Source: Candidatus Poribacteria bacterium
GTDB taxonomy: Bacteria > Poribacteria > WGA-4E > PCPOR2b
Assembly (NCBI GenBank): GCA_965218095.1
Contig: OZ244587.1
Coordinates: 1,760,001 to 1,824,000 of the forward strand
Length of the DNA: 64,000 bases
Direction of reading: 5' to 3'
In this document: positions 9,912 to 26,054 of the stretch, piece after piece
Numbering within the stretch: the stretch's first letter is position 1
Layout of the letters: every line of letters starts with the position of its first letter
Position numbers and translations under genes: made by a program
The notes under the pieces: model-generated
The model's database searches: none
What the model was told of the DNA's origin: nothing
The model's input: only the letters and a program-made list of their open reading frames with translations

Positions 9912-11765
9912 ATGTCTTCAAAGTGGATGTTTACCGGAGCTCTATTAACCGTTGCTGTCATATTTCTTATCCCTCAAGCCAACGCACAGCAACGGTTCTC
10001 TGAAGCAGTCGGGCCAGTTTCTATTCAAGCGGTCACCTCTACGACGCCGCTGATTGTTCCTTACATTATATGGGGCGGCGAATCTGCCCTATTCTATGCT
10101 AACGGTGGCTTACTCACTAAACCTGGGTCGATCATGGCAAACCAGGGATTAAATCTGAAGCTAGTTCCCGGCGATAATTTTCCACAGCAGGTGAGAGACT
10201 ATTTATCCGGGAAATCCCCACTCCTTCGCGGAACATTTAGAATGATTGCTCAAGCAAGTGAGGTGATTGGGCGCGATGCGAGGACGAAGGGGGTTGTATT
10301 TGGTCAGTTAACGTGGTCTGCTGGCGACCATTTCGTTGGGAGGCCTAATATCAGAAGAATTTCAGACTTGCGCGGGAAAAAAGTTGCAATCCAAAAAGGC
10401 GGCCCCCATGTCGGTATGCTTTACGACATGTTGCAGACAGCAAGGCTTTCCAAGTCTGATGTGACGATTGTCTGGGTTGATGACCTGACAGGGCCAAATG
10501 GACCTGCAGAGCGGTTCAGGCAGGATGCGACAATCTCTGGTTGCTTCGTGATTACGCCTGACATGATCGGTTTAACCGGCGGGCATCAAAACACGGGCAG
10601 TGGGGCGGAAGGAACGATCAAAGGCGCTTATGTGGTTGTCAGCACAGCAACGCTTTCACGCTCAATCGCGGACGTCTATGCTTGCCGAAAGGATTTCTAT
10701 GACCCCAATAAGGGGTTGATTGAGAAATTCTTTGCGGGATACTTGAAAGGAGTGGAGGAGGTCATCCAACTCAAGAAAGCTTATGAGTCGAGAGGTTCTA
10801 AGGAATATATGGCGCTGCTTCAGATGATGCAGGATATTTATGGAAAGGACGTGCTTCCAACGCTTGAAGAAGATGCACACGGTCTGATTGCAGACTGTAC
10901 ATTTGTCGGCCAACCCGGTAACGTTGCATTCTTTAACGATCCAACAAATACGGTTGCGGGATTTGAAGGCTTTAATAAAGCGGGATTGGACATGGCAGTG
11001 AGCTGGGGATTCGCCAGGGTGAGACATAACCTGATCCCCTCCGACCTGAATTATAGTTCATCAGCTTTCACGAAACTTCTCGGGACAACGATTACTGCTC
11101 CTGTCCAGCGCAAGCGTTTTAAGGAAGAAACCGTCAGAGCGGAGATCGAATTGTTTAACGAAGAGGAGGTCCTTGACGAGAAGACGCTTATCTCGTTTAC
11201 CATTCAGTTTAAGCCAAACCAGGACACATTTAGCGAAGCCGAATATCGTGAAGAATTCGACAGGATAGTTGAACTTGCGTCAAAGTATGGAAATGCAGCC
11301 ATTGCCATCAAAGGACATACAGATCCGTCAAGAACCCTGATGGCAGCGGTTAAAACCGGATTGCGGCAAGGGATTTTAAGGCGCACCGGAACAAAAGGAA
11401 ATTACGAATATTTCATGAACGGCAAATCCTTTAGCTTGGAAAATACAAAAAATCTGATCCGATTAATCCAGCAGAAGAAGTTTGGCGATGCGAGTGATTT
11501 TGAGGGGCCCTATCAAATCATGAGAGCGGGGTTAAAACTCTCCGAACAACGTGGGGAAACCGTCAAACAGGCAATCGTTGTTTATGCCCGTAAGAAAAAC
11601 GTCCGAATTGAACCTGAGCAGATTGTCCCTGTTGGTGTGGGCATCAGAGAGCCGTTGATTGCCAAACCCTCTAATCCAGCAGAAGCGGCGAAAAATCGGC
11701 GTGTGGAGTTTGCCCTGATTAAGGTTTCGGCTGAAGCTGTTGTCGCCACTGATTTTGATTTCTAA
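9912..11765 (+). CDS. Secreted NMT1/SsuA-like substrate-binding protein fused to a C-terminal OmpA-like domain
   Basis: RBS aggagg; signal peptide ending ANA; TWSAGD and DLRGKKVAI (PBP2-like); IKGHTD...LSEQR...PVGVGIREP...NRRVEF (OmpA_C). Confidence 0.85.
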   Translation: MSSKWMFTGALLTVAVIFLIPQANAQQRFSEAVGPVSIQAVTSTTPLIVPYIIWGGESALFYANGGLLTKPGSIMANQGLNLKLVPGDNFPQQVRDYLSGKSPLLRGTFRMIAQASEVIGRDARTKGVVFGQLTWSAGDHFVGRPNIRRISDLRGKKVAIQKGGPHVGMLYDMLQTARLSKSDVTIVWVDDLTGPNGPAERFRQDATISGCFVITPDMIGLTGGHQNTGSGAEGTIKGAYVVVSTATLSRSIADVYACRKDFYDPNKGLIEKFFAGYLKGVEEVIQLKKAYESRGSKEYMALLQMMQDIYGKDVLPTLEEDAHGLIADCTFVGQPGNVAFFNDPTNTVAGFEGFNKAGLDMAVSWGFARVRHNLIPSDLNYSSSAFTKLLGTTITAPVQRKRFKEETVRAEIELFNEEEVLDEKTLISFTIQFKPNQDTFSEAEYREEFDRIVELASKYGNAAIAIKGHTDPSRTLMAAVKTGLRQGILRRTGTKGNYEYFMNGKSFSLENTKNLIRLIQQKKFGDASDFEGPYQIMRAGLKLSEQRGETVKQAIVVYARKKNVRIEPEQIVPVGVGIREPLIAKPSNPAEAAKNRRVEFALIKVSAEAVVATDFDF

Positions 11766-11768
11766 GAA

Positions 11769-12218
11769 ATGATGAAAGTGACAAATCAGATGATTCGTAA
11801 ATTGCTTCCAAAGTTAATCTCCATAGAAAAAGAGATTTCTGACGAGAAGGGGAGTTTTAGACTCTTTGGGATTTTCCTGCGTGAGGGGCAACCGCATCGA
11901 GCATGGGATCTTGTTATCACGGTCGACTGGCTGGATACAAGAACTCTGGAAGCGGATCGGATTTTTACCAAAGAGATCCAATCTCGACTTGAACGCGAGA
12001 AGTTTCTCACCCTAGCAGTGATACTGATTTTAGAACCTGACTACCCCTTCGCCAAAGAGATGAACCCTGAGTTCGATGTCGAGCATGGAGACCTTGAGTT
12101 TACCGATTACGATTTCGATGGCATGGTCTTTGAGCGTATGCATATCATTACCTCAAAAATGGGAAAACGGATTGACACAGATCTTGTTGTAGATTTCAAT
12201 AAGGAAGTCAAACCATGA
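11769..12218 (+). CDS. Hypothetical cytoplasmic protein
   Basis: 149 aa ORF packed between cluster genes; its stop overlaps the next start. Confidence 0.7.
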   Translation: MMKVTNQMIRKLLPKLISIEKEISDEKGSFRLFGIFLREGQPHRAWDLVITVDWLDTRTLEADRIFTKEIQSRLEREKFLTLAVILILEPDYPFAKEMNPEFDVEHGDLEFTDYDFDGMVFERMHIITSKMGKRIDTDLVVDFNKEVKP

Positions 12219-13153
12219 AGAACGCAAAATCCATCCTGTTCATCATCCTTCTACTTTCCATACTTCTTGTCCCAGCAGCCTCATCTGATGAAGGCGTGCA
12301 CACGGATAATATCGTGATTATTCTGGATGCTTCGGGGTCAATGGGCGACAGATTCAGCAGCGACCCGACTAAGACGAAGATGGAGGCAGCAAAAGAAGCG
12401 CTCCGGGAGGTATTATTGAAAATCCCTGATGGCACAAACATAGGCCTGCTTGTTTTTAGCGGTTCCAATGTCCGAAGTGAATGGGTTTATCCGCTTGGTC
12501 CCAAAAACGATGAGAGGCTGATGCAGGCGATCAATCTCCCCAGACCTAGCGGAGGGACGCCGCTTGGGAAGTATATTAAGATTGGCGCAGATCGTCTCTT
12601 GGAACAACGCGAAAAACAGTACAATTACGGAAGCTATCGGCTACTGACTGTCACAGACGGAAAAGCAACCGACCCGGAAAAGGTCGGGGCATATACCCCA
12701 GAAGTTATGGATAGGCAGATTAGGATTGATGTCATCGGGGTTGATATGAAACAAGATCACATGCTGGCGACAGTTGTCGATAGTTACCGCCGAGCAGATA
12801 ATCCGGGACAGTTAGTCAAGGCGGTTTCGGAAATCCTTGCTGAAACCTCGGATACCGGAATGGACATAAGTGGCGAGGATGTGTTTGAATATATTGCCCC
12901 CCTTACGGAGGAGGTTGCATTATCGTTAATCACAGCAATCACAAAGGTTCCCGAGAATAACCCAATTGGCGAGCAACCGATAGCACCCAAGTCAAAGGCG
13001 ATGACGACACAACCCACAAGTAGCGCAGGGCAGGGAGTTATTGATAACCCTCCACCAAGGAAAAAACCGTGGAGACTTCTTGTCCTCATCGTGATCGGCA
13101 TCTTGGTGTTTGCAGGCATCTGCCTATCACGTCGAAGGAGTCATGGAAGTTAA
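12215..13153 (+). CDS. Exported vWA-domain protein with C-terminal membrane anchor
   Basis: Signal peptide; MIDAS DASGS, GGTPL, VTDG; C-terminal TM followed by SRRR. Confidence 0.9.
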   Translation: MKNAKSILFIILLLSILLVPAASSDEGVHTDNIVIILDASGSMGDRFSSDPTKTKMEAAKEALREVLLKIPDGTNIGLLVFSGSNVRSEWVYPLGPKNDERLMQAINLPRPSGGTPLGKYIKIGADRLLEQREKQYNYGSYRLLTVTDGKATDPEKVGAYTPEVMDRQIRIDVIGVDMKQDHMLATVVDSYRRADNPGQLVKAVSEILAETSDTGMDISGEDVFEYIAPLTEEVALSLITAITKVPENNPIGEQPIAPKSKAMTTQPTSSAGQGVIDNPPPRKKPWRLLVLIVIGILVFAGICLSRRRSHGS

Positions 13154-13238
13154 TGCCCATGCCTGAGATCGACTATTGTCAATTGCCGCTTGCCGATTCA
13201 AGCGATAACACACCAGCAATATGAAAGGAAAATGCACG

Positions 13239-14858
13239 ATGAATGAATCTTCGAGGAGTGACTCTTCAAAGAAGGCACGCAGCAAAATCGTCATGGTCTT
13301 TAGCTGGTTGGTTATCCTTGGGATAGCGGGGGCTATCTATAAGTTCGTCATTGAACCGAGAATGAAGGGGAAGACTGTAGCTAATACTAGGACGCCCAGT
13401 CGATATACGCACGAGATCAAGATCGCCCATGACTCCTTCTCTGGTTACGCAATTCTTCGGTCCCCATCCGTTCAGAATCTGCTGGAGCGCCAAGAAATTA
13501 AGCTGACCTTCCTGGATGATAAGGCAGATTACGTTCAGAGAATGAAAAATCTACGCAGTGGCAAGATCCAAATGGCGGTCTTTACCATTGATGCTTATAT
13601 AAAGGCAGGCGATGCGATTGGGGAGTTTCCGGGTTCGATCGTGCTTGTCATTGATGAGACAAAAGGCGCGGATGCCATCGTTGCTTACAAGCAGGGCGTC
13701 CCGCAAATCCCCAAACTGAGCAACCCCGCTGCAAAGATTGTATTAACGCCGGATTCCCCCAGTGAAACCCTTGCCAGAGTTATGATAAACAAGATGAGCT
13801 TCCCCAGCCTGCCGCGAGACTGGGAATTGGAAGTAGACGGCGCCGAAGATGTGTACAAGAAGCTAAAGGCTGGGAATCCAAATGAACCGAGAGCTTATGT
13901 GCTGTGGGAGCCATTTGTTACAAAGGCATTGGCGCTCGACGGCGTTCATATCCTCCTGGACAGTTCAAAGCTCAAAGGATACATCGTCGATGTGCTGATA
14001 GCCCAGCGACAGTTTCTGACTGAGCAGCCTGAATTGGTGACGGCCGTTGTACAGGCATATCTGCGGGCGCGTTATGATTATGCCAATCAGCCGGATGGTC
14101 TGATAAACCTTGTTCTGGAGGATGCCAAAAAATACGGGGACTCGCTGAGGAGAAACGAAGCTGAAAATCTGGTCAATGGAATCGAATGGCGAAACACCAT
14201 GGAGAATTACGCCCATTTCGGCGTCATTTCCGGACAGGAAGCAAAGAATACAGATCATCTCGAAGATATGATTGCGAAAATTATCAGAGTGCTGGTTCAA
14301 ACGGGCGCCGTTGCAGGCGATCCATTAGCGGGAGATTATGGGCAAATTTTCTACGATGGCATCTTGCGATCGCTTCGCCGTGATAAGTTTCATCCAAGCG
14401 TAGCGACTTCAAGTGGCTTAGATGATATTGTTCTTGGCGATTCTACGACGACCGCGCTCCCGGAGGTGACAAGCGCCAAAGCGTTGAGCAATCTCTCGGA
14501 TTCTGAATGGAGTCGGCTCGTTCCTGTTGGCACAATGAGGTTTGACCCCATCCAATTTGGTCGGGGAAATGCCAGAATTCAGCGGAATAGTCAACGGGCG
14601 TTGGCAAGACTCGCCGAAGACCTCGACTCATTTCCGCAATGGTATCTCAAGGTCGTCGGGCATACCAGACGCGAAGGTGACCCAGAGGCAAATCGCATTC
14701 TTGCCCAGCAGCGGGCGGAGGTTGTTGCGGCGTTTCTGATGAGCAAAGGAATCAACCCCCATCGCATGAAGTTCGTTGCAAGTGACCGGCCGCCTGAAAA
14801 CGCAGTGGGGGGAAAAGCGCAAAGCGTGACTTTTGTCCTTCTGGAGAAACCGTACTGA
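13239..14858 (+). CDS. Membrane-anchored NMT1/SsuA-like substrate-binding protein fused to an OmpA-like domain
   Basis: N-terminal TM; DSFSGY, DETKGADAIV, LWEPFV; VVGHTR...ANRILAQQRAEVVAAFL..KGINPHRM. Confidence 0.85.
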   Translation: MNESSRSDSSKKARSKIVMVFSWLVILGIAGAIYKFVIEPRMKGKTVANTRTPSRYTHEIKIAHDSFSGYAILRSPSVQNLLERQEIKLTFLDDKADYVQRMKNLRSGKIQMAVFTIDAYIKAGDAIGEFPGSIVLVIDETKGADAIVAYKQGVPQIPKLSNPAAKIVLTPDSPSETLARVMINKMSFPSLPRDWELEVDGAEDVYKKLKAGNPNEPRAYVLWEPFVTKALALDGVHILLDSSKLKGYIVDVLIAQRQFLTEQPELVTAVVQAYLRARYDYANQPDGLINLVLEDAKKYGDSLRRNEAENLVNGIEWRNTMENYAHFGVISGQEAKNTDHLEDMIAKIIRVLVQTGAVAGDPLAGDYGQIFYDGILRSLRRDKFHPSVATSSGLDDIVLGDSTTTALPEVTSAKALSNLSDSEWSRLVPVGTMRFDPIQFGRGNARIQRNSQRALARLAEDLDSFPQWYLKVVGHTRREGDPEANRILAQQRAEVVAAFLMSKGINPHRMKFVASDRPPENAVGGKAQSVTFVLLEKPY

Positions 14859-14890
14859 ACCTTGCGGAGGTTTCAAACCTTCGCAGGGTT
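14858..14890. repeat. Short palindromic repeat family AACCTT-N3/4-AGGTT
   Basis: aaccttgcggaggtttcaaaccttcgcagggtt; similar copies at 37496-37529, 48902-48916 and about 50003-50017. Confidence 0.7.
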
Positions 14891-14911
14891 GAAGAGCAGG
14901 AGGCGAGGCAA

Positions 14912-15688
14912 TTGATCGACCGGAAGAAGTTAAGGAAAAAAATTCTCCTCAATCTCATAGGAAACTCCGCCGTGATCTTTCCCTTTGCCGGCGGAGCCAC
15001 CTTAGCCTTTGTAACGTGGTTTTTTAATCTTGAGCCGAGTATTCTATTTCTGTTTGTCAGCGGCGTCGTGGGGATTCTGGGCCCCGTAGGCGGGTTGATT
15101 ACGAAATGGACAACGGGCTTAGACAACATCTCAAAGCAGGCATTAAGGGAGTTGCAGGAGGAAGTTCATAAGGAACAGGAGCGTCAACTTGATGCTTTAC
15201 GCAAGCAGCTTACAGCGGATGGGGATGCCAGAACTGAAAGGATGCTTGCCGATCTTCGCACGTTGCATCAATCCTTTAAAGCAGAAGTCAATGAAAACAC
15301 ATGGTCATCATCTATCCCGTCGAATGTCGCCTTTGAGCTTGCCTACAAAGTTGAAGCCCTGTTTCATGAATCGGTAAATTGCTTAAAAGAAACCCTCACA
15401 CTTCGAGAAAAGGCGAGAAATACCGCAACGAAAACAGCAAAATCGCCTCTCTTACAACAGCGAGAACATCTGATCGCAGATGTTCAGGAAACCATCGCGC
15501 AACTCTCCAAAATCTACGGAGAGGTACTGACACTTGATACCAATAGTGATGAAACGCAGCTCTCAAGACTCAGAAATGAGCTTGATGAAAATATAGAGTT
15601 TGCCAAAAAAGTTGATCAGACAATGTGTGAGCTTGAATCACGCGATATCCATGAACCGAGTAAATATGATCAGTATATTGAAAAGTGA
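14912..15688 (+). CDS. Two-TM protein with a cytoplasmic helical/coiled-coil domain (possibly XpaC-like)
   Basis: Two hydrophobic segments, then long amphipathic helices; family call is inference. Confidence 0.7.
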   Translation: MIDRKKLRKKILLNLIGNSAVIFPFAGGATLAFVTWFFNLEPSILFLFVSGVVGILGPVGGLITKWTTGLDNISKQALRELQEEVHKEQERQLDALRKQLTADGDARTERMLADLRTLHQSFKAEVNENTWSSSIPSNVAFELAYKVEALFHESVNCLKETLTLREKARNTATKTAKSPLLQQREHLIADVQETIAQLSKIYGEVLTLDTNSDETQLSRLRNELDENIEFAKKVDQTMCELESRDIHEPSKYDQYIEK

Positions 15689-19370: not shown

Positions 19371-19424
19371 CATTATGCACTACCCTCATTTAACCCCATG
19401 ATTACTTGAAAGGAGAAAGACAAA

Positions 19425-20252
19425 ATGGCAAGCGGGTTTGGAAGATTCTTCAAAGCGATTTGGTATACAGTCACGGGACGTGCTCATGAGCTTGCTGACA
19501 GCATGATGGAAAACCCTGAAGCTGTCCGGGGAGCTTATGAAGATATTATTGCAGAGAAGAAAGAGAACATCCAGCGCTATAAGAATGCAATCGGTCAACT
19601 GATCGCCTTAGTCAAGCAAAAGGAGGGAACACTTGACAAGCTGACGAGAGATGTAGAGCGGCTGGAACAGCTTAAAACCGGCGCCTTAGCCAAAGCGAAG
19701 AGTGTCGCCGGCGACCTTCAGAGGCAGGGACAAACTCAAGAGGATATTAAAATGAATCCAGAGTATATGAACTGTGTCGCCGCCTACAACGATTTTAGTT
19801 CAACGCTGGAAGAGAAGAACGCTCGAATCGAAGAACTTGAGGCGGACATCCAACACGCTCAAGGGGACATTGACAATCATAAGGTTCAGATTACGGCATT
19901 GGGCAAAGATTTGGATAAAATCAAGGGAGAACAGGCAGAAGCGGTCGCCGATCTGATTACTGCAAGGGAGCAGGAACAGATTGCTGACATGGTTTCTGGC
20001 ATAAGCACTGATGGCACATCGGCGGAACTTGCCAGAATGCGAGACATCCGGCAAAGGGCGAAGGGCAGAACGCAAGTCGCTCAAGAGTTAGCTGGCACCG
20101 ATTCTCGTGCGGAAGAGGAACAGTTTCTTGCGGCTGCCAGGGGCTCGGCGGCGACGGATGAGTTTGACGCTTTGATCTTTGGCGCCGAACAAACCGATCA
20201 AGTCGAAATCCAGAAAACTCCAACCGATTCGGACTCTGAACTTCCTGTCTAA
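19425..20252 (+). CDS. PspA/IM30/Vipp1 (ESCRT-III superfamily)-like protein
   Basis: Amphipathic N-terminus GFGRFFKAI...ADSMMENPE, long coiled-coil hairpin, C-terminal DEFDALI; RBS aaggag. Confidence 0.8.
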   Translation: MASGFGRFFKAIWYTVTGRAHELADSMMENPEAVRGAYEDIIAEKKENIQRYKNAIGQLIALVKQKEGTLDKLTRDVERLEQLKTGALAKAKSVAGDLQRQGQTQEDIKMNPEYMNCVAAYNDFSSTLEEKNARIEELEADIQHAQGDIDNHKVQITALGKDLDKIKGEQAEAVADLITAREQEQIADMVSGISTDGTSAELARMRDIRQRAKGRTQVAQELAGTDSRAEEEQFLAAARGSAATDEFDALIFGAEQTDQVEIQKTPTDSDSELPV

Positions 20253-20393
20253 TTTGGTGGGTGGTGAGTGAGTGGACGTGAAAGTGAATCTGATTTTCAA
20301 CAGAATCGCCCATCACCATCCACCACCTCAAACGCAAAGCATTTATCGAAAAGATAATTCATGTCTATAGTTCTATTGGAGAGGAGAATCGCA

Positions 20394-21497
20394 ATGGGGA
20401 ATTACCGAAAGTCCATTTCAATTTCAGTCGTTTTTTGTACGATTTGCTTTTTCATGCTAACACCGATGACTTTGGCACAGAAGGCACCAACGTTCAGCCT
20501 TGCTTGGAGCGAATATCCGTCATGGAGCGTCTTCGGCGTCGCTCATGAATTTAAACTCATTGACGGCAGAGAAGGGGTGATGGAGGAAATCGAAAAAAAG
20601 TGGGACGTTGATATTAAGTTAGAAGAGCTCGATTATGATTCGTGCATGGCGCTTTATGCAAGCCTCGGCTGCGATGCCGTGTGTCTCACAAATATGGACT
20701 CGCTAAATCCAGCGTTGAGTCGTCAGTCAGTTGCCATCCTTCCCACGAGTACAAGCTATGGGGCTGATGCCTGCATTGTCGTCGGTGGCATTACGGAGAT
20801 GATTCAACTCAAAGGGGTTGATGTCTACGGTCTTGCAAAATCGGTGTCTGAGTACTGCTTTGTACGCAATCTTGAGGTGAACAACCAAAACGAAAGAGAC
20901 TACAAGTTTACCAATATGGATCCAGCCGCCGCTGCACTCGCAATGCAGCAGGGACAAAAGGGCTATCAAGCCATTGTCGTCTGGAATCCATTTGTGCTTG
21001 AGACGCTGAATAAAAGAAAAGATGCGCGAGTCCTTTTTGATTCAACCGCTATTCAGGGGGAGATTATTGATATGGTCGTCATGGCTCAGGCTTCCCTGGA
21101 TAAGCCCGGAGGCGATCAGTTCGCCGCCGTTGTTATCGAGGTTTTCTATAGAATTAACGAGATGCTAGCCGATCCGGACCCTGAACTTGCAAACGATACC
21201 TTGATTGCGATTGGAGAGAAGTTCTCCCATCTTGGCTTGAAGGATATGAGAAAGGTGATGCGGCAAACGCTGTTTTACAAAACGCCGAAGGATGGAAAAG
21301 GCTTGTTTGTGAGTGACAAACTTCCCAAGATTATGGAGAAGGTCGTGGGTTTTTGCGTCAGCCATGATATTGTTGATCAAAAGCCGACGATTGCTTACGG
21401 CCCCAAAGGCCAGGCACCAGATGTTAACTTACGGTTTGATCCGATGTACATTGAAAAATATGTGAAGAGTTATGATCAGAGACCCAATTTCAAATAG
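20394..21497 (+). CDS. ABC substrate-binding protein (SsuA/NMT1-like)
   Basis: Signal peptide; LAWSEYPSW, TNMD, SYGADA, VVWNPF, GEIIDMVV. Confidence 0.88.
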   Translation: MGNYRKSISISVVFCTICFFMLTPMTLAQKAPTFSLAWSEYPSWSVFGVAHEFKLIDGREGVMEEIEKKWDVDIKLEELDYDSCMALYASLGCDAVCLTNMDSLNPALSRQSVAILPTSTSYGADACIVVGGITEMIQLKGVDVYGLAKSVSEYCFVRNLEVNNQNERDYKFTNMDPAAAALAMQQGQKGYQAIVVWNPFVLETLNKRKDARVLFDSTAIQGEIIDMVVMAQASLDKPGGDQFAAVVIEVFYRINEMLADPDPELANDTLIAIGEKFSHLGLKDMRKVMRQTLFYKTPKDGKGLFVSDKLPKIMEKVVGFCVSHDIVDQKPTIAYGPKGQAPDVNLRFDPMYIEKYVKSYDQRPNFK

Positions 21498-22272
21498 ACT
21501 GCGGTTTTTTTTTGGCTTCCTCTCCGTTGCTATACTAATCTGCGGTTACTTCTATCTGTCCCACCGGCAGCACCTGAAAAACCCCGCTGATACCACCATG
21601 CCAAGTCTTTCTCAACTGAAAGATGGAATCAAAAAGATTACCACACCCCACAGGCGTTCAAAAGAGATATGGCTATTTGAAGATCTGAAAGCCACAGGTC
21701 TGAGGCTGGCTCTGGGGCTTTCAGCAGGTATCATCTCTGGAGTCGTCGTCGGGCTAATTATGGGGTGTTTTGCTGTTGGGGAGGCGTTTTTTCTTTTTCC
21801 ATTGTCATTTGCGTCAAAACTCAATCCAATCGCCATGCTTGCCGTATTTTTCGTCATGGTCGGTACCGACACGGAGCTATATGTTGCGATGATTGCTCTT
21901 GGCGTGATGCCAACTTTTGCGCAGACCATTTATTTGGCGGCAAAGAATGATGTCCCTGAAGAATTAATTCACAAAGCCTACACGTTGGGAGCAACACACA
22001 TTGAAGTCATTCTGAGCGTTATCTTTCGGCAGATTTTTCCACGAATTCTCGATTCGATTCGTCTCCAGCTTGGTCCGGCGCTGGTCTATCTTATTGCTGC
22101 CGAAATGGTTGTCGGACACGTCGGCTTTGGCTACAGAATCAGACTTGAATACAGAATTCTCAATATGAATGTTGTGTATCCATATATTGTGCTATTGGCA
22201 TTGTTCGGTTATGCCGCTGATTATGGACTGCGATTTCTACAAGGGAAATTCTTCCCTTGGTATGGGCGCTGA
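21472..22272 (+). CDS. ABC permease (SsuC/TauC-like)
   Basis: Six TMs; EAA-loop-like VPEELIHKAYTLGA; LIAAEMV...GFGYRI. Confidence 0.9.
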   Translation: MIRDPISNRLRFFFGFLSVAILICGYFYLSHRQHLKNPADTTMPSLSQLKDGIKKITTPHRRSKEIWLFEDLKATGLRLALGLSAGIISGVVVGLIMGCFAVGEAFFLFPLSFASKLNPIAMLAVFFVMVGTDTELYVAMIALGVMPTFAQTIYLAAKNDVPEELIHKAYTLGATHIEVILSVIFRQIFPRILDSIRLQLGPALVYLIAAEMVVGHVGFGYRIRLEYRILNMNVVYPYIVLLALFGYAADYGLRFLQGKFFPWYGR

Positions 22273-22343
22273 TAGTAAATAAGTTCATTGGTTCAGGAGT
22301 ACAGAAGTTCATTCACGCCTTACGTTTCGCTATGCTTTACCCC

Positions 22344-23293
22344 TAATAGACGATTACAAGATGTCGGATAAACTTAGTCATCATCAGGGAATCACGGGGG
22401 TTGGCTTTGTGCAAAAGCAGATGGGATAAGGCTTTGAACCGGTTGTCGGCATCGAAAATCTCAGATGGATTGGACAGTTGGGCCGAAAAGCGGTATGCTC
22501 CCTGGGATTGATAACTCAAAAATTGAGACAGAGGAGAATACCAATGAATTGTGAGTATCATAACCTACCGCCCACCTTTCAGCAAGAGTTTTTCGATCTG
22601 CTTGATGAAGTTCAAACCCAAGGCATAGAGCCCGTAGTGTTAGAAGCATTGTTAATTGCCCCATTGGTCAGTGACCACATCGCCGAAGTGGAAACCGTTG
22701 CCGTCCAACGACTAGATACGTTGCGTGAGGCGTTGAGAACAAATGCCATCCCAATAATGAGACTATTGAGTCGGCTCTCTTTCTTGCTCTTTTTGGAATA
22801 CCTCACTCGATTTTTTTCGCAAAACAACCCTGGCAGAAAACGCGATGGCGAATTGTCCTTTGTGGGGATGATTCACTTTTGGTCCATGCCGAAGAGAGCC
22901 ATCAACCCGATGTGGTCAACATTTGGAGTACCCTTTATAAGACCTACCGCAAGGCACATGATCTCATTGTTTTGGGAATCACCATCGGTTCCAAGACAGG
23001 AGCGTTCTTCTTTCCACTTTGGGTGGAATTGTGGCGTCAACCGAGCCAAAGAAAACAGCCCCGTCCCCAACGAATGGCGGCTGCGCTATTGCGGCTGAAC
23101 CAACAGGTTAAAGATACCGGGTTGAGCTTAGAAGGCATTGATTTTGCCACCGACAATGGATACCTCTCGCCAACTGTTGCTAAAGCGGTTGACGCATCTG
23201 GTTTGATTTTGACGACCCGGTTCAGATCCAATCAACCGGTGACACCCCTTGATGGTGAATCCATCGTGATTCGGGATTTGTAATCGTCTACTA
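22344..23293 (+). mobile_element. Degenerate, truncated IS of IS4/IS701-like DDE type
   Basis: TIRs TAATAGACGATTACAA / TTGTAATCGTCTACTA; frameshifted transposase pieces with GDDSLL and FATDNGY motifs. Confidence 0.75.
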
Positions 23294-23310
23294 CTAAGAA
23301 AAGGCAAATT

Positions 23311-24237
23311 ATGGAAACTGTACTTGAATGCAAGGGGGTTACCCATTATTTTGGTGAAAATCGGGTGCTTCATGACATCAACCTTCAAGTGGTTAGAGGG
23401 GAGATCGTCTCATTAGTTGGACCGAGCGGCTGTGGGAAATCCACTTTGCTTCGAGCAATCTTAGGAACCCATCCGCCACATAAAGGCGAAATATTGGTCA
23501 GTGGGAGGTCCGTCAAAGGTGCCGGAAGGGACAGGGGAATTGTTTACCAGCGTTATTCACTCTTTCCATTTCTGACAGCGCAGAGAAATGTGACACTGGG
23601 ATTGCTTTTTGATCAGAATTCACTTTTTGACAGGTTTGTTAAGTATTTTGTCTGGAGGAAAGAGAAAAAAAGACACCTTGACGAAGCTACGGCGCTGCTT
23701 CAAAAATTAGGACTTGGTGATGCACTGAACCTTTATCCATATCAGATGTCAGGAGGGATGTGCCAGCGGGTTGCAATCGCCCAGGCCGTTATCATGAAAC
23801 CCCAGATTCTCCTTCTGGATGAACCTTTTGGTGCCCTTGATGAGGCAACTCGCGAGGAACTTCAGAAAATGCTGCTGACTTTCTATGCAGAGAACCTTGC
23901 GGCGATGAATAATGGAGAGCAACCCCCGTATACGATCATTATTGTCACCCATGAACTTAATGAAGCCATCTACGTTGCAGATCGAGTGGTTGCGCTTTCG
24001 CAGTATTGGAACTGGCGAGAAAAGGAATTTGAAAACTTCCCCGGTGCCACAATCGTGTATGACCAAATGGCGCCTGCTTTTGCGCCGACTGATGAGATCA
24101 ATTACGTACAGTTTCTTGAACAACGGACAGAGATCCGGACAGCGGCATTTGATCCGAATTATCGCCAGGAACGGGATGACTTCAATAAATTCTGGGGACA
24201 GGTACATGAAAATGAAGAGGAGGTGTTTGAGCGATAG
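23311..24237 (+). CDS. ABC ATP-binding protein (SsuB/NrtD-like)
   Basis: GPSGCGKS, YQRYSLFP, MSGGMCQR, LLLDEPFGALD, VTH. Confidence 0.95.
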   Translation: METVLECKGVTHYFGENRVLHDINLQVVRGEIVSLVGPSGCGKSTLLRAILGTHPPHKGEILVSGRSVKGAGRDRGIVYQRYSLFPFLTAQRNVTLGLLFDQNSLFDRFVKYFVWRKEKKRHLDEATALLQKLGLGDALNLYPYQMSGGMCQRVAIAQAVIMKPQILLLDEPFGALDEATREELQKMLLTFYAENLAAMNNGEQPPYTIIIVTHELNEAIYVADRVVALSQYWNWREKEFENFPGATIVYDQMAPAFAPTDEINYVQFLEQRTEIRTAAFDPNYRQERDDFNKFWGQVHENEEEVFER

Positions 24238-26054
24238 CTGTCAAAAGTCCGAAGTATGAATTTCTGTCTCAAGCGGGAACGATAATAAACGCAGGGACCT
24301 CGAAAAGCATCATCCTTGCAGGAAATATTCATGACCTTTTCTTTTTTGATGATGGAGGGGGAAATGAGGGTTATGTGCCACTCGTTTCACTCCTGACGCG
24401 CACCTGGGATGTGCCCGGGTTTATCCTGATGGTTTATGAACTGAACGGTCCCATCAGATTTTTGGGAGCGAGCGACAAGGAAAAGCTGAGAAAGACGTTC
24501 AGTTTATGGAGACAAGATACCGATCAAAACCTGCTCTCCAAAGACACCATTCGTTATCTCATTCCGGGGAGGGGAACAAAATCTGCAGAAGAGCAATTCG
24601 ACACATATCTGAGGAACTCTATTGGAAACCCAACTGTTGCCCTTGAATTGCTCAGGCAACTATGTCTGCTTTCCCGAGGAACTGATGAGTTTGGCACAAA
24701 ATTGTTGAAAGAAAAGTTGTTGATTATTGTTGAGGCGGCTGATATGTTAATGCCGGAGGGAGAAATCCCGAGACTCTCCCAGGCGGATCGGCATAGGGTA
24801 GGCATTGCGCACGATTGGATTCTTGATCCGGATTTCATGAGTGGGAAAGATGTTGTCATCTTTATCACAGAATCCAAAAGTTTGATGAACTCAAGAATCA
24901 CGAGGCTTCCTCAAGTAGCAACCGTTGAAATTCCGTCGCCCGGTGTAGATGAGAGAAAACATTTTATTTCCCGGTTTAATAGAACCCAAAAACCCAAAGG
25001 GAAGGGGTTGCGTCTCTGGGGTACACAGGAGCAAGTCGCCATGCTGACAGCGGGGCTTTCTATCCATGCGTTGCGACAACTCCTCATCACGGCTTGTTAT
25101 TCCGGGGAAAAACTCCAGCCCCAAGATGTGATTCAGAAAGTTGGCGATTTTATTCAAGGACAAATGGGCGAAGATGTTGTTGAATTTAAGAAACCGGCTC
25201 ACGGCTTGAAAGACGTGGTCGGAAATCAACGATTGGTTGCTTTCATTCAGACTAGGCTTCTGCCGCGTCTCACCTCAACCGGTCCGGATGCAATTGCCGG
25301 TGCTGCGGTTGGTGGTCCCATTGGGAGTGGAAAGACATTCATCTTTGAGGGGCTGGCCGGGGATCTGGACATTCCCGTTTTGGTCCTCAAAAACATCAGA
25401 AGCATGTGGTTTGGCCAAACAGACGTGATCTTTGAACGCCTCAGGCGTCTACTCGCGGCACTCGTTAAAGTAATGATCTTTGTTGACGAGGCGGATACCC
25501 AATTCAGTGAAATCGGCAGAGATGCTCACGCCACTGAGCGCCGGTTAACAGGAAAGATACAGGCAATGATGTCAGATCCGCAGCTCAGGGGCAATATTAC
25601 GTGGTTACTGATGACCGCCCGAATCTACAATTTGTCGCCCGATCTCCGACGGGAGGGAAGGGTCGGTGATATGGTCATACCGGTTCTTGATCCCAACGGT
25701 GAAGATCGGAAAGCGTTTGTTAAATGGGCAATTCGTGACGTTTTTAACGGCTCCGCCAGCGATGCGGTTATTGAAAAAATGTCGCAAATCACGGAGGGAT
25801 ATTCTGCGGCAAGTTTTGCCTCACTTCGCTCTGACTTGCGTGCAGAAGGCGTCCCCTTATCAATCGAGCAAATTCTTGAAATCGCTTCTGACCGGATTCT
25901 CCCGGACATTGGTCCTGTTAGAAGATATCAAACGCTGCAAGCATTAATAAACTGCACACGGAAATCGTTACTTCCAGAAGACTATTCTCACCAAATGCGG
26001 GCTGAATGGATGGCGGAAGTCAGAAGGCTTGAACAGATGGGGGTCGGGCGTTAA
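24234..26054 (+). CDS. AAA+ ATPase with a degenerate N-terminal and an intact C-terminal AAA module; start uncertain (ATA 24234 or GTG 24375)
   Basis: Walker A GPIGSGKT, pore loop SMWFGQT, Walker B IFVDEAD, SRH-like LSPDLRREGR; frame is open from 24231. Confidence 0.88.
   Translation: MAVKSPKYEFLSQAGTIINAGTSKSIILAGNIHDLFFFDDGGGNEGYVPLVSLLTRTWDVPGFILMVYELNGPIRFLGASDKEKLRKTFSLWRQDTDQNLLSKDTIRYLIPGRGTKSAEEQFDTYLRNSIGNPTVALELLRQLCLLSRGTDEFGTKLLKEKLLIIVEAADMLMPEGEIPRLSQADRHRVGIAHDWILDPDFMSGKDVVIFITESKSLMNSRITRLPQVATVEIPSPGVDERKHFISRFNRTQKPKGKGLRLWGTQEQVAMLTAGLSIHALRQLLITACYSGEKLQPQDVIQKVGDFIQGQMGEDVVEFKKPAHGLKDVVGNQRLVAFIQTRLLPRLTSTGPDAIAGAAVGGPIGSGKTFIFEGLAGDLDIPVLVLKNIRSMWFGQTDVIFERLRRLLAALVKVMIFVDEADTQFSEIGRDAHATERRLTGKIQAMMSDPQLRGNITWLLMTARIYNLSPDLRREGRVGDMVIPVLDPNGEDRKAFVKWAIRDVFNGSASDAVIEKMSQITEGYSAASFASLRSDLRAEGVPLSIEQILEIASDRILPDIGPVRRYQTLQALINCTRKSLLPEDYSHQMRAEWMAEVRRLEQMGVGR

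What the first reader, a model, noticed from the sequence alone, without database searches (positions are those of the whole stretch)
9912..26054. Candidate envelope system: PspA/ESCRT-III, AAA+ ATPase, twin flotillins, SBP-OmpA fusions, vWA and an ABC importer
Seen: 13 co-oriented genes, several with overlapping start/stop codons. In order: SBP-OmpA, hypothetical, exported vWA, TM-SBP-OmpA, two-TM coiled-coil, NfeD-like, flotillin x2, PspA-like, SBP, permease, ABC ATPase, AAA+ ATPase. Established: PspA/Vipp1 are bacterial ESCRT-III homologues; NfeD and flotillin organise membrane microdomains; OmpA_C binds peptidoglycan; SsuABC-type sets are importers. Inference: three binding proteins for one permease, two of them cell-wall-tethered, plus membrane-remodelling proteins and no catabolic enzyme, look more like a ligand-sensing, envelope-repair or anti-phage/anti-toxin machine than nutrient uptake. 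Parts of such neighbourhoods may already appear in comparative surveys of Psp/Ter stress systems, but I know no experimental characterisation of this combination.
Basis: partly seen in the sequence, partly recalled or inferred. Interest (0 to 1): 0.88.

Follow-up and report, generated by a model that had tools for sequence, protein, structure and literature searches.

The report
PspA–AAA+ envelope operon with flotillins
A sponge-associated bacterium (Candidatus Poribacteria) carries a gene cluster, shared with several other bacterial phyla, that pairs a membrane-repair protein of the ESCRT-III family with its own motor ATPase, cell-wall-tethered binding proteins and a small importer; in this genome alone a flotillin module has been inserted into it.

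Summary
All 13 co-oriented genes lie at 9912-26054 with the stated domains.

Nine of them form a real, conserved system in fixed order: SBP-OmpA, vWA, TM-SBP-OmpA, a 2-TM helical protein, a divergent PspA, an SBP, a permease, an ABC ATPase and an AAA+ ATPase. The order recurs at 40-65% identity in Verrucomicrobia, Omnitrophota and deltaproteobacterial MAGs. All nine genes are present in 6 of 12 non-Poribacteria loci.

The NfeD-like gene and the two flotillins are not part of that system. They were found in 0 of 13 related Poribacteria loci and 0 of 80 loci centred on the TM-SBP-OmpA gene. In relatives they form a separate three-gene module elsewhere in the genome.

The core association (PspA, a two-domain AAA+ ATPase, an ABC set and a PBPB-OmpA protein) was already described in silico by a 2024 survey (PMC11237479). 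I found no experimental work.

New points:
- The 2-TM partner belongs to a Pfam-less family of 920 representatives.
- PspA has a conserved C-terminal tail.
- The AAA+ gene starts 47 codons earlier than the listed ORF, at a conserved ATA/ATC codon.

No support for anti-phage defence was found.

The parts
9912..11765 (+). g01: exported SBP-like (NMT1/SsuA superfamily) protein with a C-terminal OmpA-like domain split by an insertion. Core gene 1.
   Evidence: Pfam NMT1 E 3e-7 and OmpA 20.3 bits, below the cut-off. NCBIfam OmpA-type hits at residues 587-646. GHTD and LSEQRG motifs present. Orthologues start at residue 46 of ORF 9777, which is 9912. Present in 76 of 80 g04-centred loci; the 4 without it (L052, L060, L067, L070) have g04 under 2 kb from a locus end.
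11769..12218 (+). g02: 149-aa protein with no TM segment and no family. Lineage-specific insertion, not a core gene.
   Evidence: No Pfam, NCBIfam or PADLOC hit. No tblastn match in 13 related loci. No paralogue in the genome.
12215..13153 (+). g03: vWA protein with a signal-like N-terminus, a DxSxS motif (DASGS) and a C-terminal TM anchor. Core gene 2.
   Evidence: VWA_2 and VWA at E 3e-12. Hydropathy segments 1-28 and 284-308. Motif found. Next to g04 in 80 of 80 loci.
13221..14858 (+). g04: one TM segment, a periplasmic SsuA-like SBP domain and an OmpA_C domain. Core gene 3.
   Evidence: OmpA 48.1 bits against a cut-off of 27.2; SsuA_fam E 3e-8. TM segment at 21-45. 338 relatives in genome contigs, reaching other phyla at 46-51% identity.
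14912..15688 (+). g05: N-terminal TM hairpin plus a cytoplasmic helical domain of about 190 aa with a conserved DGDxRTE motif. Candidate membrane anchor or adaptor for PspA. Core gene 4.
   Evidence: Alignments A1 and A9. No consistent Pfam family in 19 orthologues and no PDB match. Profile search: 920 representatives at E<=1e-3 and 464 at E<=1e-30. Directly upstream of PspA in 10 of 13 Poribacteria loci and in all 10 non-Poribacteria loci that hold PspA.
15774..16424 (+). g06: three-TM protein with an acidic linker and a small C-terminal domain. NfeD/YqiJ-like by architecture and by JGI naming only. First gene of the inserted module.
   Evidence: Hydropathy. No Pfam or PDB hit, even with a profile. 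JGI names of homologues. Stand-alone g06-g07-g08 module elsewhere in 6 of 6 relatives examined.
16425..17912 (+). g07: flotillin-type SPFH protein A. Inserted module.
   Evidence: Band_7 65.8 bits. FloT model 57 bits against a cut-off of 700. Orthologues at 81-85% identity lie at unrelated loci in relatives.
17909..19165 (+). g08: flotillin-type SPFH protein B. Inserted module.
   Evidence: Band_7 61.8 bits. Follows g07 in all 6 stand-alone loci.
19425..20252 (+). g09: divergent PspA/IM30 (ESCRT-III superfamily) protein with a conserved C-terminal tail (EFDxL ... LPx at the end). Core gene 5.
   Evidence: PF04012 at E 5.4e-8 over residues 9-243. 14 of 21 orthologues hit PF04012, best 1.6e-9. 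Profile against PDB finds Vipp1/PspA at E about 1e-6. hhalign against the genome's canonical PspAs: probability 51% with A3 and 17% with A7. Tail conservation in A3 and A7.
20361..21497 (+). g10: periplasmic SBP of the NitT/TauT (SsuA/TauA/urea-type) kind. Core gene 6.
   Evidence: TIGR03427 at E 2.4e-42, 145 bits, under its cut-off of 334. 57-65% identical across phyla. In 41 related genomes the matches of 80% identity or more lie only in the cluster.
21472..22272 (+). g11: ABC importer permease. Core gene 7.
   Evidence: BPD_transp_1 48.3 bits. TauC/SsuC-like.
22273..23310 (.). 1,038-bp insertion between the permease and ABC ATPase genes. It holds a small ORF (from the ATG at 22544, inside ORF 22478-23098) with an 86-aa paralogue elsewhere in the genome. 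Not part of the system.
   Evidence: The nearest relative has only a 92-bp spacer here (L011). Paralogue at genome 5996767-5997027, 70% over 77 aa. No Pfam hit.
23311..24237 (+). g13: ABC transporter ATPase. Core gene 8.
   Evidence: ABC_tran 116.7 bits. Its TAG stop at 24235-24237 overlaps the ATA at 24234-24236.
24234..26054 (+). g14: 606-aa two-tier classical AAA+ ATPase with a degenerate N-terminal tier and an active C-terminal tier. Apparent ATA start codon. Core gene 9.
   Evidence: AAA 47.8 bits. Profile against PDB finds VAT/Afg2/p97/Cdc48 at E 1e-33 to 1e-26, only over profile positions about 283-548. One Walker A (GPIGSGKT), Walker B (MIFVDE) and a pore-loop-like MWFG. N-terminal extension and start codon. 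Next to PspA in 12 of 13 Poribacteria loci; the 13th is cut by its contig end.

Best explanation
The window holds a member of a conserved nine-gene envelope system, into which three extras have been inserted in this lineage: a separate NfeD-like plus two-flotillin module, an orphan gene (g02) and a 1-kb insertion.

The anatomy is shown by the sequence.
- Periplasmic side: two peptidoglycan-tethered, SBP-like proteins (one soluble, one anchored in the inner membrane) and a membrane-anchored vWA protein with a DxSxS metal-site motif.
- In the membrane: a two-TM protein with a cytoplasmic helical domain, and a one-permease, one-ATPase ABC importer with its own SBP.
- Cytoplasmic side: a divergent PspA and a two-tier classical AAA+ ATPase. 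Its upper tier has lost the P-loop. Its lower tier keeps Walker A and B and an aromatic pore loop.

How it most likely works is inferred.
- The cell-wall-tethered binding proteins and the vWA protein report an envelope or ligand state.
- The two-TM protein recruits or nucleates a PspA (ESCRT-III-type) polymer on the inner leaflet.
- The AAA+ ATPase takes hold of PspA's conserved flexible C-terminal tail and threads or extracts subunits, so the polymer turns over. This is what Vps4 does for ESCRT-III, although this ATPase is not a Vps4 orthologue.
- The dedicated ABC importer takes up the small molecule that its SBP binds, linking solute state to membrane remodelling.
- The conserved ATA/ATC start codon keeps the ATPase scarce relative to PspA.
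- In this genome the inserted flotillin/NfeD-like module probably adds an SPFH scaffold that helps place PspA at the membrane, as YdjI does in Bacillus subtilis.
For: Gene order across phyla. The order g01-g03-g04-g05-g09-g10-g11-g13-g14 is complete in 6 of 12 non-Poribacteria loci (L120, L121, L124, L126, L129, L131). L123 lacks only g10. Three more loci end at a contig end.

Within Poribacteria.
- PspA and the AAA+ gene are adjacent in 12 of 13 loci. g05 is adjacent to PspA in 10 of 13.
- A second version at 24-43% identity keeps the same order (L044).
- Among 41 related genomes, 16 have both PspA (g09) and g04, 3 have only g09, 1 has only g04, and 21 have neither. These genomes are kin, not independent samples.
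- The g10 SBP was found only inside clusters.

PspA identity.

AAA+ ATPase. It belongs to the classical clade, with one Walker A, a Walker B and a pore loop. W-F-G and the R..GR stretch are invariant in 16 orthologues. The N-terminal tier matches nothing and shows GNIHD where a P-loop would sit.

PspA tail. F247, L273 and P274 are invariant in 21 orthologues from several phyla. The tandem PspA paralogues of L016-L018 lack the tail.

Start codon. Of 12 Poribacteria loci, 8 have ATA, 2 have ATC and 2 have ATG at the homologous position. In 8 of the 10 ATA/ATC loci there is no in-frame ATG, GTG or TTG upstream. A GGAGG-like stretch lies 8-12 nt upstream. Between the window and L011 the 47 extension codons show 13 synonymous and 9 non-synonymous differences.

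Literature.
- PMC11237479 describes the PspA, AAA+, ABC and PBPB-OmpA association and proposes ATP-dependent remodelling (passages).
- PMC8581546 reports that an SPFH protein links PspA to the membrane in B. subtilis (title and start of abstract only).

Expression. Near-identical short contigs from four sponge metatranscriptome libraries of one study lie on 20-24 of 30 bins of 9500-26500.
Against: - No structure or complex could be predicted. The ESCRT-III fold of g09, the nature of the g14 N-terminal tier and any PspA-AAA+ or g05-PspA contact are all untested.
- g09 scores just under Pfam's cut-off (33.1 against 33.9). 7 of 21 orthologues do not reach E 0.01. The hhalign probabilities are only 51% and 17%.
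- g05 shows no detectable similarity to PspA, Snf7 or any solved chain.
- The modules come apart. In most Poribacteria loci of family f2, g01-g03-g04, with or without g05 and X600, sits away from PspA and the AAA+ gene: 60 of 80 loci. G004, G010 and G037 have PspA and the AAA+ gene without g04.
- L130 keeps the periplasmic and ABC genes but lacks PspA and the AAA+ gene. L127 stops after g10.
- In several Poribacteria an unrelated soluble protein of 560-620 aa replaces the ABC trio, so import is dispensable for the rest.
- The flotillin link is a single rearrangement in one lineage.
- The RNA-library contigs cannot show transcription, strand or operon structure, and DNA carry-over is not excluded.
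- The promoter and terminator scans were at chance level.
Confidence: 0.55

Rival explanations
1. The AAA+ ATPase does not act on PspA. It acts as a membrane-protein extractase or quality-control unfoldase on the tail-anchored vWA protein, the two-TM protein or the transporter. PspA merely stabilises the membrane while this happens.
For: The ATPase is nearest to Cdc48/VAT/Afg2-type unfoldases, not to Vps4. It has no MIT-like domain that Pfam can see. g03 is tail-anchored with a short basic cytoplasmic end. Where the ABC set is present, the AAA+ gene is translationally linked to the ABC ATPase gene by an ATAG or ATGA overlap.
Against: PspA-AAA+ adjacency persists where all the membrane and periplasmic genes are elsewhere or were not found (L014, L019, L020). 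The PspA tail is conserved exactly in the orthologues that travel with the ATPase and is missing from the extra paralogues.
Confidence: 0.15
2. It is an anti-phage or anti-toxin defence island that kills or seals the infected cell through membrane remodelling.
For: The distribution is patchy with apparent transfer across phyla. Genes typical of mobile elements lie just downstream on the other strand: a Dam methylase fragment and two ParB-like genes.
Against: PADLOC gave only weak coiled-coil or P-loop noise for 10 proteins, with the best E at 1.3e-5 to LmuB over a coiled coil. The cluster is present in 112 of 112 genomes of one Poribacteria family, which is unlike an accessory defence gene. 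No nuclease, protease, NAD-degrading or cyclase effector is present.
Confidence: 0.08
3. It is an ordinary sulfonate, urea or nitrate-type nutrient importer that happens to lie beside stress genes.
For: g10, g11 and g13 have the standard NitT/TauT architecture and hit TauC, SsuC and urea-SBP models.
Against: All matches are below the equivalog cut-offs. The trio is co-conserved with PspA and the AAA+ gene across phyla and across 24-43% divergence. g10 was never found outside a cluster in 41 genomes. No catabolic enzyme is present.
Confidence: 0.05
4. It is a ligand-triggered membrane invagination or vesicle device, a bacterial analogue of ESCRT-mediated sorting. The wall-tethered receptors and the vWA protein capture a periplasmic macromolecule, and PspA with the AAA+ ATPase shapes and cuts membrane around it.
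For: The carriers seen are Poribacteria, Verrucomicrobia and Omnitrophota, and the Atlas clusters of the two-TM family are commonest in Planctomycetota. The combination of periplasmic binding modules, an ESCRT-III-type polymer and a threading ATPase resembles the archaeal systems with SPFH and a ProX-type SBP described in PMC10936438 (passages).
Against: There is no evidence of cargo, vesicles or topology. The SBP domains are of a small-molecule type. The Atlas taxa rest on few members.
Confidence: 0.12

Closest known systems
[quoted passage not shown]
   Same: [quoted passage not shown] The paper proposes ATP-dependent membrane remodelling linked to solute transport.
   Different: The passages I read do not mention the vWA protein, a second PBPB-OmpA protein, the separate SBP, the fixed nine-gene order, the PspA tail or the start codon. 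They speak of 'Snf7 homologs with a TM segment', a likeness I could not confirm for g05. In this window a flotillin module is inserted as well.
ESCRT-III with Vps4 (archaea and eukaryotes)
   Same: A polymer-forming protein of the ESCRT-III superfamily is encoded beside a classical-clade AAA+ ATPase with an aromatic pore loop. Extra polymer paralogues occur in some genomes. Only one paralogue carries the C-terminal tail.
   Different: The ATPase has no MIT domain. It has two tiers with a dead upper tier, and it is nearer to VAT/Cdc48/Afg2 than to Vps4 or spastin in the PDB profile search. The polymer protein is of PspA type, not Snf7 type. [quoted passage not shown]
Bacillus subtilis pspA-ydjGHI (samGHI) operon
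   Same: PspA is encoded with membrane proteins and an SPFH (flotillin-family) protein that places PspA at the membrane (PMC8581546 and PMC13713150: titles and starts of abstracts; PMC9239133 passages).
   Different: Here the SPFH genes are two membrane-anchored flotillins of 495 and 418 aa with their own NfeD-like partner. They joined the PspA operon only in this lineage. B. subtilis has no AAA+ ATPase, PBP-OmpA or ABC genes in that operon.
PspM (Rv2743c) of the Mycobacterium tuberculosis clgR-pspA-pspM-pspN operon
   Same: A small integral membrane protein encoded beside PspA. The nearest Pfam-bearing Atlas cluster to a g05 homologue is PF25587 Rv2743c: feature score 0.88, and TM 0.53 and 0.52.
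   Different: Both scores are below the tool's own bar, and no sequence match was found. That PspM binds PspA is recalled from the literature, not checked here.
SsuABC/TauABC-type (NitT/TauT family) ABC importers
   Same: One SBP, one permease and one ATPase. NMT1/SsuA-type SBP fold family.
   Different: All scores are below the equivalog cut-offs. The set is embedded in and co-inherited with the Psp-type genes. Two further SBP-like domains are fused to OmpA_C.

Membership tests
PspA/IM30 (PF04012; ESCRT-III superfamily) | Match to the family profile at or above the curated cut-off | tested here: inconclusive
   Window protein scores 33.1 bits against a cut-off of 33.9, E 5.4e-8, covering profile positions 3-206 of 220. 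14 of 21 orthologues reach E<=0.01, best 1.6e-9. The genome's three canonical PspAs score 112-188 bits.
PspA/IM30 (PF04012; ESCRT-III superfamily) | Sequence relation to solved PspA/Vipp1 structures | tested here: met
   The profile of 20 sequences finds Vipp1/PspA chains (8qbv, 8qbr, 8qbw, 6zvr) at E 1.1e-6 to 1.5e-6, in two stretches. The single sequence gives E 0.002.
PspA/IM30 (PF04012; ESCRT-III superfamily) | ESCRT-III helical-hairpin fold and polymer formation | not testable with these tools
Vps4 (MIT plus a single AAA domain) | N-terminal MIT domain | tested here: not met
   No Pfam family on residues 1-300 even at E 10. The PDB profile search matches only positions about 283-548.
Vps4 (MIT plus a single AAA domain) | Closest relatives are Vps4, katanin or spastin | tested here: not met
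   The best PDB hits are VAT, Afg2, p97 and Cdc48 (E 1e-33 to 1e-26). Spastin comes at 5e-17. No Vps4 chain is among the 60 listed. The CdvC model gives only 22.6 bits.
Classical AAA (PF00004) | Profile match, Walker A and B, aromatic pore loop | tested here: met
   47.8 bits against a cut-off of 21.2. GPIGSGKT, MIFVDE and MWFG are present and invariant across 16 orthologues. The meaning of these motifs is recalled knowledge.
PspA-AAA+-ABC-PBPB-OmpA operon class (PMC11237479) | PspA, an AAA+ protein with an inactive N-terminal copy, an ABC ATPase, a permease and a PBPB-OmpA protein in one operon | tested here: met
   All five kinds are present and co-oriented. The N-terminal tier shows GNIHD in place of a P-loop. 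The paper's example record could not be fetched for a direct comparison.
SPFH / flotillin (PF01145) | Band_7 profile match and an N-terminal membrane anchor | tested here: met
   g07 scores 65.8 bits and g08 61.8 bits against a cut-off of 23.6. Hydrophobic N-termini. The FloT equivalog is not met: 57 and 73 bits against 700.
NfeD (PF01957 / COG1585) | Profile match to NfeD or to a solved NfeD C-terminal domain | tested here: not met
   No Pfam hit for g06 or for 7 orthologues at E<=1. No PDB hit with a profile. The only support is JGI's name on 22 of the 120 listed homologues, plus the architecture and the position upstream of the flotillins.
OmpA_C peptidoglycan-binding domain (PF00691) | Profile match above the cut-off | tested here: met
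   Met for g04 (48.1 bits against 27.2). g01 is below the cut-off (20.3 bits) and split by an insertion, but carries GHTD and LSEQRG. g04 has GHTR in place of GHTD. The role of these residues is recalled.
vWA (PF00092 / PF13519) | Profile match and a DxSxS metal-site motif | tested here: met
   47.5 and 47.6 bits. DASGS at residue 38.
NitT/TauT-type ABC importer with a named substrate (SsuABC, TauABC, urea-type) | Equivalog-level scores | tested here: not met
   g10 scores 145 against 334 (TIGR03427). g11 scores 70 against 342 (TauC). g13 scores 160 against 357 (the taurine ATPase model). The general architecture is met.
Known anti-phage defence systems (PADLOC-DB 2.0) | Match of any component to a defence-system model | tested here: not met
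   10 proteins were scanned. Only weak partial hits appeared (TerY 2.4e-4, LeoBC 3.2e-4, LmuB 1.3e-5, IetA 3e-4), with zero or one matched stretch each, over coiled-coil or P-loop parts. g10, g11 and g13 were not scanned.
PspM (PF25587 Rv2743c) or Snf7 (PF03357), considered for g05 | Profile or profile-profile match | tested here: not met
   No such family at E<=10 for g05 or at E<=0.1 for 19 orthologues. hhalign against the PspA profiles gives probability 0.1-1.2%. The Atlas lead to Rv2743c is below the tool's bar.

The most novel reading that the evidence does not exclude
Bacteria of several phyla (Poribacteria, Verrucomicrobia, Omnitrophota and, by the Atlas, Planctomycetota) possess an independently evolved working equivalent of ESCRT-III with Vps4. 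A PspA-type polymer carries a conserved C-terminal tail that is the handle for a dedicated two-tier AAA+ disassemblase. The pair is wired through a novel two-TM adaptor to peptidoglycan-tethered periplasmic receptors and a vWA protein, so that an extracellular or periplasmic ligand triggers ATP-driven membrane remodelling, and possibly invagination or vesicle formation. The conserved AUA/AUC start of the ATPase gene would be a built-in brake on its stoichiometry.
Probability: 0.2. Interest if true: 0.85.

Novelty: new variant of a known kind. Interest (0 to 1): 0.55.

Why it matters
Recent reviews state that bacteria lack a Vps4-like partner for their ESCRT-III proteins, and that it is unknown how PspA/Vipp1 polymers are taken apart (PMC7619361; PMC10936438; passages read). 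This cluster offers a concrete candidate: a PspA whose gene travels with a pore-loop AAA+ ATPase across at least four phylum labels.

It also has a defined set of nine parts that could be expressed and reconstituted. A pull-down and a disassembly assay with the tail deleted would answer the question directly.

The work also gives three further results:
- It defines a large protein family with no Pfam entry, the two-TM partner.
- It shows that the flotillin link, attractive as it looks, is a one-off rearrangement.
- It corrects the gene model of the ATPase, which most gene callers truncate because of its non-canonical start.

Tried and rejected
1. Structure prediction of g05, g09 and g14 was switched off, so no fold search could be made. 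I used profile searches against PDB sequences and hhalign instead.

2. Complex prediction of the PspA tail with the AAA+ ATPase was not available. Nothing was folded.

3. 'g05 is a TM-anchored Snf7 or PspA homologue': no support from Pfam, PDB or hhalign. The idea is set aside, not disproved.

4. 'g05 is PspM-like': only an Atlas lead on a homologue (P0134), below the tool's bar.

5. 'g06 is NfeD': no profile support. I kept it only as 'NfeD-like by name and architecture'.

6. Anti-phage reading: PADLOC gave nothing usable.

7. RNA families: no Rfam match at E<=0.1 in 9000-27000.

8. Promoter and terminator scan: 19 and 18 sites found, against 20.1 and 19.3 expected from shuffles. Uninformative.

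9. Exact insertion borders of the flotillin module: the intergenic DNA is too diverged to place them. Only the coding ends of g05 and g09 align with relatives.

10. A tenth conserved gene downstream of the AAA+ gene in other phyla: only L123 and L126 share one. L124 has two Kdo/WaaP-family kinase-like genes. None is conserved more widely and none matches in this genome.

11. Is g02 equivalent to the 151-aa ORF at the same position in L122? No similarity.

12. Metatranscriptome contigs. Some bins of 9500-26500 had no cover in one or more of the four runs, for example 11768-12334 in all four. With contigs at this depth that proves nothing.

13. The single-sequence word search for g05 gave only 11 clusters. 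The profile search that reads every protein gave 920. The first figure reflects the method, not the size of the family.

15. Supplementary files of PMC11237479 (Text S2.2, Tables S2-S4) could not be opened. They may already describe more of this operon than the passages I read.

16. Claims of 'not in print' rest on four full-text searches. 'Poribacteria' with 'PspA' gave 0 papers.

Full report
WHAT IS THERE.

The window is bases 1,760,001-1,824,000 of a single-contig genome of 6.35 Mb. Names attached to near-identical proteins and loci place it in Candidatus Poribacteria.

Pfam and NCBIfam confirm the domain calls:
- an SBP-like protein with an OmpA-like end (g01);
- a small protein with no family (g02);
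- a vWA protein (g03);
- a TM-SBP-OmpA protein (g04);
- a protein with an N-terminal hydrophobic hairpin and a helical rest, no family (g05);
- a three-TM protein, no family (g06);
- two Band_7/flotillin proteins (g07, g08);
- a PspA_IM30 match at E 5.4e-8, just under the curated cut-off (g09);
- an SBP, a permease and an ABC ATPase of the SsuABC/TauABC kind (g10, g11, g13);
- an AAA ATPase (g14).

Hydropathy gives the topology. g01 and g10 have signal-like starts. g03 has a signal-like start and a C-terminal anchor. g04 has one TM segment. g05 has a hairpin. g09, g13 and g14 have no TM segment.

Two details were missed. A 1,038-bp stretch (22273-23310) separates the permease and ATPase genes, and the AAA+ gene is longer than the listed ORF. 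Both are described below.

WHICH GENES BELONG TOGETHER.

I fetched the surroundings of the g09 orthologue from 13 genomes of the same order and laid all 14 window proteins on them.
- PspA and the AAA+ gene are neighbours in 12 of 13 loci. The 13th locus ends right after PspA.
- g05 sits directly upstream of PspA in 10 of 13.
- g01-g03-g04 are present in 6 loci, plus one cut by its contig end.
- The ABC trio is present in 3, the closest relatives.
- g06, g07, g08, g02 and the ORF in the gap were found in 0 of 13.

A second, much more diverged version in other genera of the order (24-43% identity) has the same order: g01-g03-g04-[TM helical protein]-PspA-SBP-permease-ABC-AAA+ (L044). L042 and L043 show a variant of it.

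A scan of one genome per species for relatives of g04 found 338 stretches. Of the 80 best, 68 are Poribacteria-like. The other 12 carry labels of Verrucomicrobia, Omnitrophota, Deltaproteobacteria, Kofleriaceae, 'Parcubacteria SG8_24' or plain 'bacterium'.

In these 12 loci the nine genes g01-g03-g04-g05-g09-g10-g11-g13-g14 stand in exactly this order at 40-65% identity:
- L120, L121, L124, L126, L129 and L131 have all nine;
- L123 lacks only g10;
- L122, L125 and L128 end at a contig end;
- L127 stops after g10 although more DNA is held;
- L130 lacks PspA and the AAA+ gene.

None of the 80 loci has a flotillin or g06 match within 10 kb of g04.

So the unit is a nine-gene system. It is old or mobile enough to be shared between phyla.

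THE FLOTILLIN MODULE.

g07 has orthologues at 81-85% identity in relatives, but at places far from their PspA cluster. In G012, for example, it lies at about 2.0 Mb against 20 kb, and in G008 at 1.03 Mb against 2.31 Mb. It also occurs in a family (f3) where the PspA and AAA+ genes were not found.

In all 6 such loci that I fetched, g06-g07-g08 stand together in this order, and no other window ORF matches their flanks. The genome has no second copy.

The block is therefore a self-contained NfeD-like plus two-flotillin module. In this genome's lineage it has landed between g05 and g09. The nearest relative has a spacer of about 110 bp there (L011).

The junction DNA is too diverged to show the borders.

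g06 could not be tied to NfeD by any profile. Only JGI's COG-style name on 22 of the 120 listed homologues, its architecture and its position say so.

PspA with SPFH/flotillin and NfeD-type partners is a known recurring association:
- B. subtilis YdjI (PMC8581546, title and start of abstract);
- Acidobacteriota neighbourhoods (PMC9239133, passages);
- band-7 with YqiJ/YuaF-type proteins (PMC11237479, passages).

The insertion is thus a plausible functional fit, but here it is one event in one lineage.

THE PspA.

The genome has three canonical PspAs elsewhere, scoring 188, 148 and 112 bits. g09 scores 32 bits in the same search.

Evidence that g09 belongs to the superfamily:
- PF04012 covers nearly the whole protein.
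- 14 of 21 orthologues from several phyla hit it, best 1.6e-9.
- A profile finds solved Vipp1/PspA chains at about 1e-6.
- hhalign against the genome's canonical PspAs aligns up to 174 columns, but with low probability (51% and 17%).

I take it as a divergent member. The fold itself could not be tested.

All 21 orthologues share a C-terminal tail after the last helix: an EFDxL-type motif, a variable acidic linker and a terminal LPx. F247, L273 and P274 are invariant.

In family f2, up to three extra PspA paralogues stand in tandem upstream of the orthologue, and they lack this tail.

THE AAA+ ATPase.

A profile of 18 orthologues finds VAT, Afg2, p97, Cdc48 and NSF at E 1e-33 to 1e-26, then Rix7 and spastin. 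All matches fall over profile positions of about 283-548. No Vps4 chain is among the 60 listed.

There is one Walker A (GPIGSGKT), a Walker B (MIFVDE) and a pore-loop-like MWFG. These and an R..GR stretch are invariant in 16 orthologues.

The first 300 or so residues match no family. They have GNIHD where a P-loop would be and an hhhhEAAD stretch. [quoted passage not shown]

It is thus a threading-type motor of the classical clade. It is not a Vps4 orthologue, and it has no MIT domain.

START CODON OF THE AAA+ GENE.

The ORF list starts the gene at the GTG at 24375. But the frame is open from 24231, and the 47 codons before the GTG encode a peptide (…AVKSPKYEF…GNIHDLF…) that aligns with the N-termini of the orthologues.

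In other phyla the gene starts there with a canonical codon:
- The proteins are 605-652 aa.
- The start often overlaps the ABC gene's stop by 4 nt.

In Poribacteria the codon at that position is:
- ATA in 8 of 12 loci (the window, L011-L014, L018-L020);
- ATC in 2 (L015, L017);
- ATG in 2 (L022, L023).

In 8 of the 10 ATA/ATC loci there is no in-frame ATG, GTG or TTG between the preceding stop and this codon. A GGAGG-like stretch lies 8-12 nt upstream in all.

Between the window and L011 the 47 codons differ at 13 synonymous and 9 non-synonymous positions. The latter fall mostly in a short acidic linker. So the extension is under protein-level constraint.

In the window the ATA (24234-24236) overlaps the TAG stop of the ABC gene.

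The simplest reading is initiation at AUA/AUC. That such codons initiate weakly is recalled knowledge, not tested here.

THE TWO-TM PARTNER.

g05 and its orthologues share two TM helices and a helical domain with a conserved DGDxRTE motif.

A profile read against 1.84 billion representatives finds 920 proteins at E<=1e-3 and 464 at E<=1e-30, nearly all of 240-260 aa.

No Pfam family recurs among 19 orthologues, and there is no PDB match.

For a stored homologue the Atlas lists only unnamed clusters, commonest in Planctomycetota. The nearest named one is PF25587 Rv2743c (PspM), below the tool's bar.

I therefore call it a new family that probably does what PspB/C, LiaI or PspM do, namely hold PspA at the membrane. 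This is inference from position and topology.

THE TRANSPORT AND PERIPLASMIC PARTS.

g10 is the best-conserved protein across phyla, at 57-65% identity.

In 41 related genomes its matches of 80% identity or more lie only in clusters. The matches of 26-29% in G001, G006, G027 and G030 lie in the second-type clusters. Only three weak hits, in family f4, lie elsewhere.

The three SBP-like domains are not recent paralogues.

In several Poribacteria a soluble protein of 560-620 aa with no family ('X600') takes the place of the ABC trio between PspA and the AAA+ gene. It is not found in this genome.

In family f2 the periplasmic module, with a g05 copy and X600 (33 loci) or alone (27 loci), sits apart from the PspA and AAA+ genes (for example G034 at 4.85 Mb against 4.68 Mb).

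The system is thus modular: a periplasmic trio, a cytoplasmic PspA-AAA+ pair with g05, and an exchangeable middle.

Among 41 genomes, g09 and g04 co-occur in 16, g09 alone in 3, g04 alone in 1, and neither in 21. These genomes are kin, so no statistics are claimed.

Across the phylum the AAA+ gene matched in 130 of 176 genomes at E<=1e-20:
- family f2, 112 of 112;
- genus g4, 0 of 20;
- at least one weak hit (L046) lies in an unrelated context.

EXPRESSION.

Four sponge metatranscriptome libraries of one study hold short contigs at least 95% identical to the region, lying on 20-24 of 30 bins. One contig crosses the g04/g05 junction.

These are assembled contigs at low depth. They show presence in RNA libraries, not transcription, strand or operon structure.

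COMPARISON WITH WHAT IS KNOWN.

The closest description is two sentences in PMC11237479. My searches found no experimental study of this system and no paper that mentions both Poribacteria and PspA.

The window's cluster is therefore a member of a computationally known operon class, with a lineage-specific flotillin insertion.

What this analysis adds:
- the fixed nine-gene core, including the vWA protein and two distinct PBP-OmpA proteins;
- the Pfam-less two-TM family;
- the conserved PspA tail;
- the corrected gene model with a non-canonical start;
- the evidence that the flotillins are not core.

VERDICT.

The mechanism (a PspA polymer turned over by a dedicated AAA+ motor, placed by a two-TM adaptor, under periplasmic wall-tethered sensing and linked to a dedicated importer) is inferred from anatomy and co-inheritance.

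Noticed in passing
window 24231-24375 (and L011-L020): The AAA+ ATPase gene appears to start at a conserved ATA (ATC in two relatives) with a GGAGG-like site upstream. In the window this codon overlaps the TAG stop of the ABC gene (ATAG). Gene callers truncate the protein by 47 or more residues. Orthologues in two Poribacteria genera and in other phyla use ATG at the same position.
   Followed up: yes
window 26300-26390 and about 7912-8000: A palindromic dispersed repeat of about 91 nt with at least 17 near-full copies in the genome. One copy lies just downstream of the cluster and one lies upstream of queC. The bin holding it (25943-26500) has a summed depth of 52-92 in the RNA-library contigs, and many different contigs break at 26330 and 26360.
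   Followed up: partly
window 22273-23310: A 1-kb insertion between the permease and ABC ATPase genes. Its small ORF (from 22544) is 70% identical over 77 aa to an 86-aa ORF at genome position 5996767-5997027, and more weakly to a third place near 4609542. No family. The nearest relative has a 92-bp spacer here.
   Followed up: partly
L015:11422-13167, L017:11381-13240, L018:11574-13391, L021:11387-13060, L023:4619-6292: A conserved soluble protein of 557-619 aa with no Pfam family ('X600') replaces the ABC trio between PspA and the AAA+ gene in several Poribacteria. It also follows a g05 copy beside g01-g03-g04 in 33 of 80 loci. It is not found in this genome.
   Followed up: partly
L012:4168-4983, L013:12769-13659, L014:5597-6409; genome 5441475-5442251: A DUF481 (outer-membrane barrel type) gene sits inside the cluster in genus g5. 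This genome has its homologue (51-57% identity) 3.7 Mb away.
   Followed up: no
L016:8378-10397, L017:9666-10421, L018:8874-10283: One to three extra tandem PspA paralogues (33-54% identical to g09) stand upstream of the orthologue in family f2. All lack the conserved C-terminal tail, and some carry long insertions after the first helix.
   Followed up: partly
genome 99780-100427, 4598698-4599345, 4601617-4602258: Three canonical PspA genes elsewhere in the genome. Two are only 2.3 kb apart, with small membrane-protein-like ORFs beside them.
   Followed up: no
window 26703-28225, minus strand: A 98-aa fragment of a D12-class adenine methyltransferase (the first 85 of 253 profile positions) and two ParB-HTH-like genes lie right after the cluster. 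G+C is lowest in the window here, 0.434 at 26001-28000. Possibly a remnant of a mobile element.
   Followed up: no
window 11769-12218: g02, a 149-aa soluble protein wedged between g01 and g03 with 4-nt spacing or overlap. It has no relatives in 13 related loci, no paralogue and no family. L122 has an unrelated 151-aa ORF in the same position.
   Followed up: partly
window 9573-9809: RNA-library contigs show two joints just upstream of g01, skipping 235 and 39 bases, and a one-base deletion at 9678. This may be strain variation in a repeat-rich intergenic stretch.
   Followed up: no
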